A DNA stretch of 64,000 nucleotides from Alphaproteobacteria bacterium (GCA_965232465.1 OZ246977.1:2502135-2566134), one strand, 5' to 3'. Shown: positions 59,891 to 62,442, counted from the first letter of the stretch. Notes: generated by a model from the letters alone, not told the origin. Made by a program: numbers and translations.

Positions 59891-61015
59891 CTATATCATA
59901 ATAGTCCGCATTCTCCACAATCGTCTTAACAGCTTAAAAATTATTCTGCCGATAAATAACACCATCGGAATGACAATTAAATCTTCGTATAAGATACCAT
60001 ATTCCCAATTTGACACATCATATACTTTTTGCCATTCAATGGTTGCAAAATACGCATATGTATATAAAAAAGCATACCGGAAAAACAATATCATCACGGA
60101 CAAATTTAAGATACCATATATAAGGCTTATTTTTTTGATACCTGCCCATTGCCAACGATACAGCCGTTGATAAAAATCCCTGACAAGATTGTGTATGCCG
60201 GTAATATCCACCAATAACCAATATCCATCAGACCGTCCAAAGGGTAATAATAATCCGATTACCGCATGTATAAATGCGATAAAACCACTATTCGATATAA
60301 ATGCAGAATCTGTATATATGCCTACGCTTAAATACAAAATGGCAATCCCCATTTGAATGCCATATCCTGCCATTGTTACAATAATGCGTTCGATTTTTTT
60401 CCCCACCCAAATATGGCTGACATCCGTAAAAAATACAGGTATAAATATATAAATACCAAAAGATACCTTGGGGGCTTTATCAGAAATTCTGGATGCGGCA
60501 ATGATATGCCCACATTCATGCATAATAGCAATGGCAAAAAACATCATAACATAGTATGGGGATTGGTATATATCTATGCGATAGGCATCTGCATTTTGCA
60601 TCATAAATACGGATAACGCTGTACCGATTGCAAAAGTAATAAAAAACCATACGAAAAATACCGAAGGAATACATATCACATTTATTTTTTTTAACACTGT
60701 AAAAATCCATTTTGTACTAAATAAATGGACATTAAAATGGGTATAATCTTTTTGTTTTTCCGCAAATTTGGATTCCAATGTGGTTATAATGTGGACATAT
60801 ATATTTTCAAAATTATGTATCCCCACATCGTATGCATGTGTTTTTAAAAATTGGATACCCTCTTGCACTGTATCTGAGTCCTGAATTGCTTTTAACACAT
60901 AATAATAATCGGCGTTAATACGAATAATATCCCCTTGATGACAAACAAGATAGTTTTCTGTATTATATACCAATTCGAAGTCAGATATTTTATTTTTAAT
61001 GGACTTAAAATCCAT
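59891..61015 (-). CDS. Integral membrane zinc metalloprotease-like protein (HExxH within a TM helix, M50/site-2-protease-like) with an about 110-aa cytoplasmic N-domain.
   Basis: AIMHECGHIIAA HExxH motif embedded in a hydrophobic segment. At least 5 further TM segments. No confident subfamily. Confidence 0.5.
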   Translation of the reverse strand: MDFKSIKNKISDFELVYNTENYLVCHQGDIIRINADYYYVLKAIQDSDTVQEGIQFLKTHAYDVGIHNFENIYVHIITTLESKFAEKQKDYTHFNVHLFSTKWIFTVLKKINVICIPSVFFVWFFITFAIGTALSVFMMQNADAYRIDIYQSPYYVMMFFAIAIMHECGHIIAASRISDKAPKVSFGIYIFIPVFFTDVSHIWVGKKIERIIVTMAGYGIQMGIAILYLSVGIYTDSAFISNSGFIAFIHAVIGLLLPFGRSDGYWLLVDITGIHNLVRDFYQRLYRWQWAGIKKISLIYGILNLSVMILFFRYAFLYTYAYFATIEWQKVYDVSNWEYGILYEDLIVIPMVLFIGRIIFKLLRRLWRMRTIMI

Positions 61016-61049
61016 CCCTTATCCCCCCTGTTGCCATATTGTACAATAG

Positions 61050-61880
61050 TTATTTGAACATATCGTGTGCTTCTTTTAGCAACAAATCACATTTTCTCAG
61101 AAGTAACTTAATAACCCGTATGCGTGCATTTTGATTTAACATTTCTGCAAACCCATCATATGATTTTTGATAATAGTGTCTGGCTTTAACAATAAAGTTT
61201 TCATATTCCCCTGTTGCCAATACATATTTTTGTAATGTATGATAGTTTAAGTCTGATAAATCATACCCTTGCTGTTGTAAAAACCGCATAGATCGGCGTT
61301 CAGAAAATTTTGAATATTCCAATGTTAAAGTCCTATTTCGCCAATTGGTATACATGATAACATCATAAAAATAGCTAAACCCACGCATTAAATCTTGTAA
61401 ATATTTCAATATGTCTTTGCCCAAGCCCGTTTTGAAATAAGGTTTTAATGTTTCGTACAAAACAAATGTGTACGATCGATGCCGTAATCCTATGGATTCA
61501 AAATCTTGAAAATTATCTAAGTCCATATTTTCATAATATTTACCAAATGATTTGACATGCCAATATCCTTTATCATTTGCGTATATATTCCATACGGGGT
61601 GATTTTCAGGATAATACATCTTTGCGGTTTTTAAGGCACTTGCTGACACATCATCTTGTGCCCAATTAAATACATAGTATTGATGTAACAATGAGGAAAA
61701 ACCCGCCGCCATTTGTTTAACTTTTAGTGGGGTATCTTTTTCGCAAAAATATTCAAATATTTCCACCAATCGAAATAAATATGAATTGGTTTGCATATTA
61801 TTCATATGGGAAATAACTTCTTGTTTGCGTGCATCGGTTGCTTCTGGTAAAGCATAAATAAATTGATCTCTATATAACAT
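61050..61880 (-). CDS. Hypothetical protein (276 aa, soluble, aromatic-rich).
   Basis: Long ORF with coding-like composition. No recognisable motif. Confidence 0.4.
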   Translation of the reverse strand: MLYRDQFIYALPEATDARKQEVISHMNNMQTNSYLFRLVEIFEYFCEKDTPLKVKQMAAGFSSLLHQYYVFNWAQDDVSASALKTAKMYYPENHPVWNIYANDKGYWHVKSFGKYYENMDLDNFQDFESIGLRHRSYTFVLYETLKPYFKTGLGKDILKYLQDLMRGFSYFYDVIMYTNWRNRTLTLEYSKFSERRSMRFLQQQGYDLSDLNYHTLQKYVLATGEYENFIVKARHYYQKSYDGFAEMLNQNARIRVIKLLLRKCDLLLKEAHDMFK

Positions 61881-61907
61881 GGTATTCTTTCAATAATAAA
61901 TCTCTTT

Positions 61908-61945
61908 AAAAAATAAAAAAGGGGGAACGAAACCGCACCCCCCTT
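61908..61945 (-). terminator. Rho-independent terminator (GGGGG-N11-CCCCC stem followed by TTTTTT on the minus strand).
   Basis: Minus-strand reading ggggggtgcggtttcgttcccccTTTTTT immediately 3' of the small gene. Also positioned to terminate the convergent upstream unit. Confidence 0.65.
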
Positions 61946-61961
61946 TAATTAATGCATGATA

Positions 61962-62096
61962 TTACTTATCATCATCATCATCGTCTTTATCGTGTCCTTC
62001 TGGTGCCCATATGCCTGGAACATGCTCCGCAAATTGTTTACGGGTTTCCAATTTTTCTAGGTCCACTTTAGTTATACGATTTTCTAGGTCTTTCAT
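61962..62096 (-). CDS. Small 44-aa protein with poly-Asp C-terminal tail (MKDLENRITKVDLEKLETRKQFAEHVPGIWAPEGHDKDDDDDDK).
   Basis: ATG at 62096 with AGGAAA 9 nt upstream. Followed by a strong rho-independent terminator. Not in the ORF track because it is shorter than 60 aa. Confidence 0.45.
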   Translation of the reverse strand: MKDLENRITKVDLEKLETRKQFAEHVPGIWAPEGHDKDDDDDDK

Positions 62097-62442
62097 TATA
62101 TTTTCCTTTCAATAAAAGAATAGAGTAAATAAAAAAGGGTTTTATCCAAAAAACACCTAAGCAATGTTTTTAAGATACTTTGTATACTATTATATAACCA
62201 AAACAGTACAATATACTTATTCGTAAATTCCTTATTTAATACACAAAATGGGGGGGGCATATCGTAAAATGCACATAAAAATGCTATTCACGATAGGATA
62301 ATATCGTAAAAATATATTTTATCCTCACTTGAAAGATTTGGACGATGTACAGAATGTTTATACTAATATGGATATTTCTGATGCGATTGCTAAACAGCTG
62401 TAACATATATAAAGGGGGCATTCCCTTTTATTTTATCATATA

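What the first reader, a model, noticed from the sequence alone, without database searches (positions are those of the whole stretch)
59891..62257. M50-like membrane metalloprotease, unknown 276-aa protein and a 44-aa peptide with DDDDDDK tail
Three co-directional genes. The small gene is not in the ORF track and has a good RBS (AGGAAA) and a strong terminator. Its product ends in six Asp plus Lys. A G8 tract sits in its upstream region at 62250-62257. Small acidic peptides adjacent to intramembrane proteases can be substrates or signalling or anti-sigma-like components. None of the three has a confident family assignment, so this may be an undescribed module.
Basis: partly seen in the sequence, partly recalled or inferred. 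Interest (0 to 1): 0.5.

Follow-up and report, generated by a model that had tools for sequence, protein, structure and literature searches.

The report
Rare three-gene peptide-maturation cassette
The three genes form a very rare, undescribed cassette that probably makes a modified peptide: a small precursor with a conserved leader and a variable tail, a new protein shaped like a prenyl-transfer enzyme, and a membrane protease of the type that removes leaders from such peptides.

Summary
Three co-directional minus-strand genes are present: a 44-aa ORF ending DKDDDDDDK (62096-61962), followed by a terminator hairpin, a 276-aa protein and a 374-aa HExxH membrane protein.

The small ORF is a real gene. 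The 276-aa family is very rare, with 6 clusters among 1.84 billion representatives. Wherever the sequence upstream of one of its genes is available, a small ORF lies nearby. These ORFs share an N-terminal leader ending L-E-x-R-x-x-F and have unrelated C-terminal cores. A leader profile built without the window peptide recovers it at E=5e-7.

The membrane protein is related to the intramembrane peptidases that mature daptides and epipeptides (YydH/LiaK), which are ribosomally made, post-translationally modified peptides (RiPPs). It scores far below both family cut-offs. Its N-terminal domain looks PqqD-like, the fold RiPP enzymes use to bind leaders (RRE).

Best reading: a new RiPP-like cassette on a low-GC islet. 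The chemistry is unknown; prenyl or lipid transfer is a guess. An anti-sigma role is not supported.

The parts
61962..62096 (-). Precursor peptide gene (44 aa plus stop). Leader: residues 1-22, 62096-62031, MKDLENRITKVDLEKLETRKQF. Proposed core: residues 23-44, 62030-61965, AEHVPGIWAPEGHDKDDDDDDK.
   Evidence: ORF. Homologous small ORFs with the same leader motif lie next to every relative of the 276-aa gene for which upstream sequence exists. Leave-one-out HMM E=5.4e-7. The leader/core boundary is inferred from where conservation stops (alignment) and has not been shown.
62102..62107 (-). Shine-Dalgarno-like AGGAAA, 5 nt upstream of the peptide's ATG
   Evidence: Read directly from the sequence.
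61912..61943 (-). Intrinsic-terminator-like hairpin plus T-run between the precursor gene and the 276-aa gene. It probably acts as an attenuator that keeps precursor transcript in excess over enzyme transcript.
   Evidence: 8-pair stem, 5 G-C, T-run. In one search the 81-nt intergenic stretch folds at -20.2 kcal/mol into this hairpin plus a second, weaker one. An equivalent hairpin plus T-run follows the precursor genes of L002, L004 and L008. The attenuator role is inferred by analogy with other peptide gene clusters.
61050..61880 (-). 276-aa soluble all-alpha protein of a new sequence family with the trans-isoprenyl diphosphate synthase (class I terpenoid synthase) fold. Candidate modifying enzyme or precursor-binding subunit.
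59891..61015 (-). 374-aa intramembrane zinc metalloprotease of the RiPP-maturation type. It has a soluble N-terminal domain of about 100 aa (61015-60716) that is putatively PqqD-like (RRE), then 6-7 hydrophobic segments.
   Evidence: NCBIfam NF041824 daptide_HExxH 6.7e-16 and NF058609 YydH/LiaK 6.4e-11, both far below cut-off. Hydropathy. hhalign of the N-terminal domain against PqqD: probability 57.6%, E 1e-4. More distant relatives sit next to radical SAM enzymes and ABC transporters.
60506..60520 (-). HExxH zinc-binding motif (H166-E-C-G-H170) inside the hydrophobic segment 156-174
   Evidence: Invariant in alignments A3, A5 and A6.
60218..60238 (-). Second M50-type motif G-R-S-D-G-Y-W (P258..R261.D263-G264-Y265), following the hydrophobic segment 239-257
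   Evidence: Invariant P, R, D, G, Y in alignment A3, which includes distant homologues. Position.
62452..62476 (-). Boundary feature, not part of the machinery: an orphan tRNA/tmRNA-like 3' end (T-arm, acceptor strand, CCA), followed by a hairpin at 62409-62431. It lies at the upstream edge of the low-GC islet that carries the cassette.
   Evidence: Unique exact match, 0 expected by chance. Weak Rfam tmRNA 3'-end hit. ARAGORN finds no intact tRNA in the window. GC is 0.33 in the module against 0.40-0.43 in the flanks. No matching direct repeat was found at the other end.

Best explanation
This is a compact biosynthetic cassette for a ribosomally synthesised peptide (RiPP-like), carried on a small horizontally acquired low-GC islet between glnD and trpF.

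1. The 44-aa gene encodes a precursor. Its N-terminal ~22 residues are a recognition leader, roughly [DE]-L-x-x-R-[IL]-x-x-x-D-[ILV]-x-x-L-E-x-R-x-x-F. Its C-terminal 22 residues (AEHVPGIWAPEGHDKDDDDDDK) are the core that becomes the product. The hairpin after the gene keeps precursor transcript in excess over the downstream genes.
2. The 276-aa cytoplasmic protein has the isoprenoid-synthase fold used by the peptide prenyltransferases ComQ, PalQ and StheQ. It engages the precursor and most likely modifies the core. My working guess is transfer of an isoprenoid or another diphosphate-activated lipid-like group to a nucleophilic or aromatic side chain, Trp8 of the core in this peptide. It would use a non-canonical active site built from the invariant K19, H134, (R135), Y137, Y172, D173 and the partly conserved D76-D77 pair.
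3. The 374-aa membrane protein docks the leader with its N-terminal PqqD-like domain and cuts it off with its M50-type HExxH/DG active site at the cytoplasmic face of the membrane, probably close to RKQF|A. It may also help release the product across the membrane, as proposed for EpeP/YydH.

Shown here: the gene trio, the conserved-leader/variable-core architecture, the rarity, the protease's relationship, the fold, and the islet.

Inferred: every biochemical step, the cleavage site, and above all the nature of the modification. I put roughly 0.75 on 'precursor plus dedicated leader peptidase cassette' and about 0.3 on 'the modification is a prenylation or lipidation'.
For: - Module conservation. 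The 276-aa family has only 6 clusters among 1.84 billion representatives and 2 hits in the word-indexed 5.8-billion set.
- Gene order in relatives. L004 has peptide, then the 268-aa homologue, then a 379-aa protease, in the same order as the window. L001/OZ254962.1 has protease, then the 277-aa gene, then a convergent peptide. L002 has the peptide followed by the 278-aa gene. L005/L006 have the peptide, the 284-aa gene and a truncated protease. L007 has the peptide, the 295-aa gene and a different HExxH lipoprotein. L008 has two tandem peptides followed by the family gene.
- The flanking genes differ in every locus, so the genes travel together.
- Leader/core pattern: alignment and leave-one-out HMM.
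- A hairpin follows the precursor gene in four loci.
- Protease: hits to NF041824 and NF058609; HExxH and DG motifs within hydrophobic segments; PqqD-like N-terminal domain. Published precedent exists for RRE-dependent intramembrane leader peptidases (MpaP/DapP, RRE in the first 100 aa; bioRxiv 10.1101/2023.03.08.531785) and for an M50 enzyme doing both cleavage and export (EpeP; PMC10885120). More distant relatives are encoded beside radical SAM maturases, SQHop-cyclase-like proteins and ABC transporters.
- ComQ, PalQ and StheQ are IPPS-fold enzymes that act on RiPP precursors (PMC10853753; bioRxiv 10.64898/2026.08.29.745113; PMC13290415).
- The invariant residues of the family are mostly polar or aromatic (K, H, Y, Y, D, W), as expected for a binding or catalytic pocket.
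- Low-GC islet in both the window and L001.
Against: - The 276-aa protein has no DDxxD, DDx(2-4)D or NSE/DTE motif. Only one family member (P0002) has DDLYD, at the column where the window protein has DDVSA. Known IPPS-fold peptide prenyltransferases keep the first aspartate-rich motif.
- No acceptor residue is common to all cores. Trp occurs in 3 of 8 and Cys in 6 of 8. Only Lys and 'some aromatic or His residue' occur in all.
- The cassette has no transporter, immunity gene or regulator.
- The RRE assignment is only moderately supported (probability 57.6%; Pfam finds no PqqD).
- All models rest on 7 sequences.
- There are no expression or product data.
Confidence: 0.55

Rival explanations
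1. The cassette makes an unmodified, proteolytically processed peptide such as a leader-containing bacteriocin, signal or metal-binding peptide. The 276-aa protein is not an enzyme. It is a non-catalytic IPPS-fold subunit that binds the precursor (chaperone or adaptor that presents it to the protease) or protects the producer (immunity).
For: - The Asp-rich catalytic motifs are absent.
- No residue type that could serve as an acceptor is shared by all cores apart from Lys.
- Many cores have Cys pairs that could simply form disulfides (L002, L004, L007, L008).
Against: - The family's invariant positions are dominated by polar and aromatic side chains (K19, H134, Y137, Y172, D173, W107). That pattern is more typical of a ligand or catalytic pocket than of a scaffold.
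- The protease already carries its own putative leader-binding domain, so an extra adaptor is not obviously needed.
- The protein has no membrane segment (maximum hydropathy 0.49), as many immunity proteins do.
- It is co-transcribed tightly with the protease (13-34 nt gaps in the window, L001, L004 and L005).
Confidence: 0.22
2. The 276-aa protein is an enzyme with the isoprenoid-synthase fold, but it catalyses chemistry other than prenyl or lipid transfer on the precursor. Examples would be a cyclisation, a dehydration or a backbone modification. The fold would have been recruited for a new reaction.
For: - The fold is shown without the metal-binding Asp motifs.
- The invariant H134, Y137, Y172, D173 and K19 could support acid/base chemistry.
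- The extreme core diversity fits a modification at a terminus or on the backbone rather than on one side chain.
Against: No precedent is known to me for this fold acting on peptides other than prenyl transfer (PMC13290415). Nothing in the data points to a particular alternative reaction.
Confidence: 0.15
3. This is a quorum-sensing module of the RRNPP/Eep type. The peptide is a pro-pheromone processed by an M50 protease, as Eep processes enterococcal and streptococcal pheromones. The helical 276-aa protein is its cytoplasmic receptor.
For: - The gene content looks superficially alike: small peptide, all-helical protein, M50-type protease.
- The polymorphic peptide tails resemble pherotype diversity.
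Against: - There is no HTH or output domain.
- The peptide's N-terminus is charged and hydrophilic, not a signal sequence.
- The conserved part is the N-terminal region, whereas RRNPP peptides conserve the mature C-terminal part with its receptor.
- The protease's relatives are RiPP peptidases, not RseP/Eep.
Confidence: 0.04
4. This is regulated intramembrane proteolysis of an anti-sigma-like or signalling component, one of the first reader's suggestions. Alternatively the small ORF is spurious and the protease is a housekeeping enzyme.
For: The HExxH/DG intramembrane protease architecture.
Against: - The small ORF is conserved with a significant leave-one-out score.
- The peptide has no transmembrane segment.
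- No sigma factor lies nearby in any locus.
- A separate housekeeping PF02163 gene sits in the canonical dxr-rseP position in L001.
- Pfam M50 scores are far below threshold, while the RiPP-peptidase models score better.
Confidence: 0.02

Closest known systems
Daptide leader peptidase MpaP/DapP (NCBIfam NF041824), an RRE-dependent intramembrane HExxH metalloprotease
   Same: - It is the best-scoring curated family for the 374-aa protein (6.7e-16, residues 87-287) and for its L004 orthologue.
- The architecture matches: a soluble N-terminal domain of about 100 aa followed by a polytopic HExxH domain. In DapP that N-terminal domain is an RRE that binds the leader.
- It is encoded next to its precursor peptide.
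   Different: - It scores 58 bits against a cut-off of 300.
- The cassette has none of the daptide enzymes (DapB, alcohol-dehydrogenase-like C, aminotransferase D, methyltransferase M).
- The precursor ends in Lys, not the invariant C-terminal Thr of daptides.
- The leader motif is unrelated.
YydH/EpeP/LiaK epipeptide maturation metalloprotease (NCBIfam NF058609)
   Same: - It is the second-best family (6.4e-11).
- It is an M50-type membrane protease dedicated to a small RiPP precursor and is thought to both cleave and export (PMC10885120).
- More distant relatives of the window protease sit beside radical SAM enzymes and ABC transporters, as in epipeptide loci.
   Different: - It scores 42 bits against a cut-off of 225.
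- The cassette has no radical SAM epimerase and no ABC transporter.
- The partner enzyme is different.
ComQ/ComX, PalQ/PalX, StheQ/StheX and the ChrPC P domain: trans-IDS-like peptide tryptophan prenyltransferases with their RiPP precursors
   Same: - A soluble protein of about 280-300 aa with the trans-IPPS all-alpha fold is encoded beside a small precursor that has a leader and a short, polymorphic C-terminal core.
- The window core contains a single Trp preceded by Gly-Ile.
   Different: - No sequence similarity is detectable (no Pfam, NCBIfam or hhalign signal).
- It lacks the FARM and the Gln-plus-pseudo-SARM that these enzymes conserve.
- Trp is absent from 5 of the 8 related cores.
- A dedicated membrane protease is present, whereas the ComX protease is unknown.
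- No histidine kinase or response regulator lies nearby.
- The hosts are an uncultured Alphaproteobacteria MAG and a contig with a Bacteroidota-like gene context, rather than Bacillota or Chloroflexota.
Site-2 protease / Peptidase_M50 (PF02163; RseP, SpoIVFB, Eep)
   Same: HExxH lies within a membrane segment and a downstream xDG motif follows another hydrophobic segment.
   Different: - Pfam scores are 10.3 bits (window) and 20.5 bits (P0004) against a 27.2 gathering score.
- It has no PDZ or CBS domains.
- The substrate is a soluble small peptide rather than a membrane-anchored regulator.
- The housekeeping RseP is a separate gene.

Membership tests
RiPP-type precursor/maturation cassette (general definition) | Small precursor gene with a conserved leader (or follower) and a variable core, encoded next to its processing genes | tested here: met
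   Eight peptides from seven loci share the leader and have unrelated cores. All are adjacent to the 276-aa family gene.
RiPP-type precursor/maturation cassette (general definition) | A post-translational modification is actually installed on the core | not testable with these tools
   This needs mass spectrometry of the product. Only the presence of a candidate enzyme fold is shown.
Daptide peptidase DapP/MpaP (NF041824) | Score at or above the curated cut-off (300 bits) | tested here: not met
   58.4 bits. The L004 orthologue scores 36.9 bits.
Daptide peptidase DapP/MpaP (NF041824) | N-terminal RRE (PqqD-like) domain of about 100 aa fused to the membrane peptidase | tested here: inconclusive
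   hhalign of a 14-sequence N-terminal alignment against PqqD: probability 57.6%, E 1e-4, 52 columns in register. Profile search of the PDB: TubR winged helix E=0.12 and PqqD 5sxy E=1.1. Pfam finds no PqqD.
Daptide peptidase DapP/MpaP (NF041824) | Daptide context: DapB/C/D/M genes and a precursor with C-terminal Thr | tested here: not met
   Neighbours are glnD, trpF and pyrF. The precursor ends in Lys.
YydH/LiaK epipeptide protease (NF058609) | Score at or above the curated cut-off (225 bits) and an adjacent radical SAM epimerase | tested here: not met
   42.4 bits. No radical SAM gene lies in the cassette.
Peptidase_M50 / site-2 protease (PF02163) | HExxH in a transmembrane segment plus a downstream DG-containing motif in another membrane segment | tested here: met
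   HECGH 166-170 lies in the hydrophobic segment 156-174. PFGRSDGYW 258-266 follows segment 239-257. Both are conserved in distant homologues.
Peptidase_M50 / site-2 protease (PF02163) | Pfam gathering score (27.2 bits) | tested here: not met
   10.3 bits, E 0.42. The orthologue P0004 scores 20.5 bits.
ComQ/PalQ trans-IDS-like peptide prenyltransferases (IPR033965 and relatives) | All-alpha trans-isoprenyl diphosphate synthase fold | tested here: met
ComQ/PalQ trans-IDS-like peptide prenyltransferases (IPR033965 and relatives) | First aspartate-rich motif (DDxxD) that binds Mg2+ and the prenyl diphosphate | tested here: not met
   The window protein has no DDxxD or DDx(2-4)D. Only a D76-D77 pair is present, and it is acidic in 5 of 7 members. 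P0002 alone has DDLYD there. Whether D76-D77 occupies the FARM position in 3D could not be checked.
ComQ/PalQ trans-IDS-like peptide prenyltransferases (IPR033965 and relatives) | Detectable sequence homology to the isoprenoid synthase superfamily | tested here: not met
   No polyprenyl_synt or terpene synthase hit in Pfam or NCBIfam for any member. hhalign against IspA: probability 0.1%. Profile against PDB sequences: nothing.
ComQ/PalQ trans-IDS-like peptide prenyltransferases (IPR033965 and relatives) | Conserved acceptor tryptophan in the precursor core | tested here: not met
   Trp is present in the window, L004 and L007 cores only, 3 of 8.
RRNPP-type peptide receptor systems | TPR-superhelix receptor with an HTH or other output domain, and a pro-peptide with a secretion signal | tested here: not met
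   The fold is isoprenoid-synthase-like, not TPR. No HTH is found. The peptide's N-terminus is charged and hydrophilic.

The most novel reading that the evidence does not exclude
The cassette defines a previously undescribed RiPP class. A divergent isoprenoid-synthase-fold enzyme without aspartate-rich motifs installs a new kind of modification on hypervariable cores. The modification could be a metal-independent or non-Trp prenylation or lipidation, or chemistry entirely new to this fold. A dedicated RRE-M50 membrane peptidase removes the leader and releases the product. The class would be confined to a handful of uncultured lineages: one Alphaproteobacteria MAG, one contig with a Bacteroidota-like gene context, and several unassigned metagenome contigs.
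Probability: 0.4. Interest if true: 0.75.

Novelty: new variant of a known kind. Interest (0 to 1): 0.6.

Why it matters
If the 276-aa protein is catalytic, it would be a new enzyme family. It would either widen peptide prenylation beyond the Trp-specific, FARM-containing ComQ/PalQ type or reveal new chemistry on the terpenoid-synthase fold.

The cassette is very small: three genes in 2.2 kb. The cores are naturally hypervariable. Here the core is acidic with a D6K tail, and elsewhere it is His/Cys-rich, hydrophobic, or Gly/aromatic/Cys-rich. That makes the system attractive for heterologous expression and peptide engineering.

It would also add a second or third natural partner set for RRE-fused intramembrane leader peptidases, whose substrate rules are poorly known.

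If the protein turns out to be non-catalytic, the finding is still a new leader-peptide/peptidase pair, but of modest interest.

Tried and rejected
- Pfam, NCBIfam and PADLOC on all three proteins and on relatives. Nothing came up for the 276-aa family or the peptides.
- Profile search of PDB sequences with the 276-aa family gave only noise: BRE1 and GabR at E of 0.04 or worse.
- hhalign of the family against E. coli IspA found no signal. The FARM and SARM positions therefore could not be mapped by sequence.
The afdb50 library was unavailable.
- Expanding the family did not work. The word-indexed search with the 7-sequence alignment added nothing. The GTDB genome scan recovered only the already known MAG OZ254962.1. 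The viral scan found nothing. The 7-sequence alignment was too divergent for pattern scans.
- The metagenome scan with the protease alignment gave 21 loci. None carries the 276-aa family. They were useful only for showing what the protease clade associates with.
- Island boundaries. No direct repeat matches the orphan tRNA-like 3' end and there is no intact tRNA in the window. An integration event is suggested by GC content but not demonstrated.
- Upstream regions of the seven loci share no convincing DNA motif, and the C8/G8 tract is not conserved.
- The Rfam hit to the L20 leader at 61908-61993 (26 bits against a 58.7 gathering score) is just the terminator hairpin. I rejected it.
- Pseudogenisation in a sister strain was rejected. 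The frameshifted gene calls in L003 come from three 1-nt insertions in a 3.7x-coverage assembly of the same genome, with 0 mismatches over 6 kb.
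Full report
**1. What is in the sequence**

Three co-directional ORFs lie on the minus strand.
- A 44-aa ORF at 62096..61962 encodes MKDLENRITKVDLEKLETRKQFAEHVPGIWAPEGHDKDDDDDDK.
- A 276-aa ORF lies at 61880..61050.
- A 374-aa ORF lies at 61015..59891 and contains HECGH.

AGGAAA sits 5 nt upstream of the small ORF's ATG. A terminator-like hairpin (8 pairs, 5 of them G-C, then a T-run) lies at 61943-61922, between the small ORF and the 276-aa gene. The G8 tract (C8 on the coding strand) is at 62250-62257. None of the three products reaches a curated Pfam or NCBIfam threshold.

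A second public assembly of the same genome (L003, ENA ERZ26168041, a 3.7x-coverage contig) matches the window with no mismatches over 6 kb. It differs only by three single-base insertions, and these explain its fragmented gene calls.

**2. The small ORF is a real, conserved gene with a leader/core layout**

The 276-aa protein belongs to an extremely rare family.
- An exhaustive HMMER search of 1.84 billion cluster representatives found six clusters.
- The word-indexed search of 5.8 billion sequences found two.

I fetched the DNA around every member and listed the small ORFs. Every locus with upstream sequence has a small ORF of 40-62 aa next to the family gene, and L008 has two in tandem.

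All eight peptides share an N-terminal segment, roughly [DE]-L-x-x-R-[IL]-x-x-x-D-[ILV]-x-x-L-E-x-R-x-x-F. Their C-terminal parts are unrelated:
- acidic with a D6K tail in the window;
- hydrophobic in L001;
- Ser-rich with a Cys/Trp-rich end in L004;
- HHKPHHGCGCSAP in L005;
- Gly-rich then aromatic/Cys-rich in L007;
- Pro/Tyr/Cys-rich in L008.

A profile built without the window peptide recovers it at E=5.4e-7 among 4,446 ORFs of at least 20 aa from 31 sources. The best unrelated ORF scores 0.018. The same test leaving out the most distant peptide (L007) gives 1.9e-5.

A conserved leader with a hypervariable core, encoded beside its processing genes, is the standard anatomy of a RiPP precursor. 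A hairpin followed by a T-run also comes directly after the precursor gene in L002, L004 and L008. That fits the usual attenuator arrangement, which keeps precursor mRNA in excess.

**3. The genes travel together**

- In L004 the order is peptide, 268-aa homologue, 379-aa protease, as in the window.
- In the complete MAG chromosome OZ254962.1 (Alphaproteobacteria, L001/L009) the order is protease, 277-aa gene, convergent peptide. This cassette sits between rpsB and a Sel1/ATP-synthase region.
- In L005/L006 the protease is present but truncated.
- L007 has a Bacteroidota-like neighbourhood (SusD, pectinesterases, GH43). There the M50-type protease is replaced by an unrelated 349-aa lipoprotein carrying HEMAH.

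The conserved logic is therefore precursor, 276-aa family protein and a zinc protease. The flanking genes differ everywhere.

In both the window and L001 the cassette is 7-9 GC points poorer than its flanks: 0.33 against 0.40-0.43, and 0.40 against 0.47-0.49. In the window an orphan tRNA/tmRNA-like 3' end at 62452-62476 (-), followed by a hairpin, marks the upstream edge. There is no intact tRNA and no matching repeat at the other end. Horizontal acquisition is likely, but the mechanism is not shown.

**4. The 374-aa protein**

Its best curated matches are two RiPP-maturation intramembrane metalloproteases:
- NF041824, daptide DapP/MpaP: 6.7e-16, 58 bits against a 300-bit cut-off;
- NF058609, YydH/LiaK: 6.4e-11, 42 bits against a 225-bit cut-off.

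The L004 orthologue behaves the same way. Generic Peptidase_M50 scores lower, at 10.3 bits.

The protein has 6-7 hydrophobic segments.
- HExxH (166-170) lies inside one of them.
- The second M50 motif (PFGRSDGYW, 258-266) follows another.
- These segments are preceded by a soluble domain of about 100 aa.

In daptide biosynthesis the equivalent first 100 residues are an RRE that binds the leader, and the enzyme is described as an RRE-dependent intramembrane peptidase (bioRxiv 10.1101/2023.03.08.531785).

I tested the RRE idea in three ways.
- A 14-sequence alignment of N-terminal domains aligns with PqqD over 52 columns in register: hhalign probability 57.6%, E 1e-4. I checked the PqqD sequence against 5SXY and 3G2B.
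- A profile search of PDB sequences returns only a winged-helix protein and PqqD, both non-significant.
- Pfam does not call PqqD.

The support is moderate.

A metagenome scan with the protease alignment found 21 more distant relatives (25-36% identity). None has the 276-aa family nearby. They sit beside radical SAM enzymes of about 470 aa, squalene-hopene-cyclase-like proteins and ABC transporters, which are other peptide-maturation contexts.

The housekeeping RseP of the MAG is a different gene in the canonical dxr-rseP position. For epipeptides, the M50 enzyme EpeP is thought to both cleave and export (PMC10885120). That may explain the absence of a transporter here, but this is analogy only.

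**5. The 276-aa protein**

It has no sequence-family hit in any library, for any member.

- The top 57 hits are all isoprenoid-synthase superfamily: GGPP, heptaprenyl and decaprenyl synthases, MoeN5, the Trp prenyltransferase Ord1, squalene/phytoene synthases and, lower down, class I terpene cyclases.
- Foldseek agrees (TM 0.62).

The fold assignment is solid. Homology is not detectable by sequence: hhalign against IspA gives 0.1%.

This is the fold of ComQ, PalQ, StheQ and the ChrPC P domain, the only known IPPS-fold enzymes that act on ribosomal peptides (PMC10853753; bioRxiv 10.64898/2026.08.29.745113; PMC13290415).

The defining catalytic features of those enzymes are missing.
- The window protein has no DDxxD, DDx(2-4)D or NSE/DTE motif.
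- The only family-wide invariant Asp is D173, in G-x-x-Y-x-Y-D.
- A D76-D77 pair is acidic in 5 of 7 members and reads DDLYD only in P0002.
- Trp, the only acceptor known for this enzyme type, occurs in 3 of 8 cores.
- Non-catalytic IPPS-fold subunits also appear among the hits.

On the other side, the invariant set (K19, W107, H134, Y137, Y172, D173, with R135 and E128 nearly so) looks like a pocket rather than a scaffold surface.

I therefore do not file it as a ComQ-family member. 'Works like one' remains the leading but weak hypothesis.

**6. Most likely mechanism and its rivals**

Preferred reading:
- The precursor is made in excess.
- The cytoplasmic IPPS-fold protein binds it and modifies the core. 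The best guess is transfer of an isoprenoid or lipid group, possibly to Trp8 in this peptide.
- The RRE-M50 peptidase docks the leader, cleaves near RKQF|A at the membrane and releases the product.

Rivals:
- The 276-aa protein is non-catalytic and acts as an adaptor or immunity protein for an unmodified processed peptide (0.22).
- It catalyses some other chemistry (0.15).
- The module is an RRNPP/Eep-like pheromone-receptor system (0.04).
- The module is an anti-sigma or housekeeping system (0.02).

The last two conflict with the fold, with the hydrophilic conserved leader and with the protease's relatives.

**7. Novelty and verdict**

The parts resemble known things: a RiPP precursor, a DapP/YydH-type peptidase and a ComQ-type fold. 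The combination is not described in the libraries or papers I could search. The 276-aa family is new at the sequence level and extremely rare.

I rate it a new variant of a known kind, with interest 0.6. The chemistry is unknown, and that is both the main weakness and the main attraction.

Noticed in passing
window 62409-62476 (-): An orphan tRNA/tmRNA-like 3' end (GGTTCGAATCCCATCACCCGCTCCA: T-arm, acceptor strand, CCA) is followed by a hairpin. It has no 5' half, and ARAGORN finds no intact tRNA anywhere in the 64-kb window. It sits at the edge of the low-GC islet and is possibly a remnant of an integration site.
   Followed up: partly
window 59500-62500: GC drops to 0.31-0.35 across the cassette against 0.40-0.47 in the flanking glnD, trpF and pyrF genes. 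The cassette in the related MAG shows the same dip (0.40 against 0.47-0.49).
   Followed up: yes
L003 9018, 9263, 9864 (window 61527, 61283, 60683): A public low-coverage (3.69x) assembly of the same genome carries three 1-nt insertions that split the 276-aa and 374-aa genes into fragments. Database entries such as P0003 (218 aa) and P0008 (122 aa) are these artefacts, not natural truncations.
   Followed up: yes
L007 9133-10182: In the version with a Bacteroidota-like context, the M50-type membrane protease is replaced by an unrelated 349-aa lipoprotein (signal MKRYLSFLLLLGVMAC) with an HEMAH motif. It has only weak M10 and SprT-like hits. This looks like non-orthologous replacement of the protease.
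   Followed up: partly
L008 590-952: Two tandem precursor genes share near-identical leaders (…LEKRFEFKG…) but have different cores. Each core has two Cys and ends in CE.
   Followed up: no
L005 7989-8753 and L006 1731-2492: The protease homologue here stops at 254 aa, before the DG motif. In L006 it runs to within two bases of the contig end. It may be a decaying copy. A Transposase_mut gene lies 1.1 kb upstream of the 284-aa gene in L005, and an (ACATTA)n microsatellite lies just upstream of the precursor.
   Followed up: no
L010, L019 (and L024, L026): Distant relatives of the protease are paired with 670-690-aa proteins that have squalene-hopene-cyclase-like repeats, and with radical SAM enzymes. 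Others (L011-L017, L027) are paired with a radical SAM enzyme plus an ABC transporter. L021, L022 and L028 are paired with unknown 281-aa proteins, and L021 and L022 also have a lipid-A-acyltransferase-like protein. These are further uncharacterised peptide-maturation clusters.
   Followed up: partly
window, L002 and L001 precursors: The three closest precursors (those from loci resembling the alphaproteobacterial MAG) all end in Lys. Two of them have acidic tails before it (DKDDDDDDK and EDDKDGGK). The two L008 precursors both end in CE. The C-terminal residue may matter within subfamilies.
   Followed up: no
window 62250-62257: The G8/C8 homopolymer lies 154 nt upstream of the precursor's start codon. 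It is identical in the second assembly and has no counterpart upstream of related precursors. I found no evidence of phase variation or function.
   Followed up: yes
L001 5525-6541: Ribosomal protein S2 of the related MAG carries a long C-terminal extension of PAAAEPPAVDET-like repeats.
   Followed up: no
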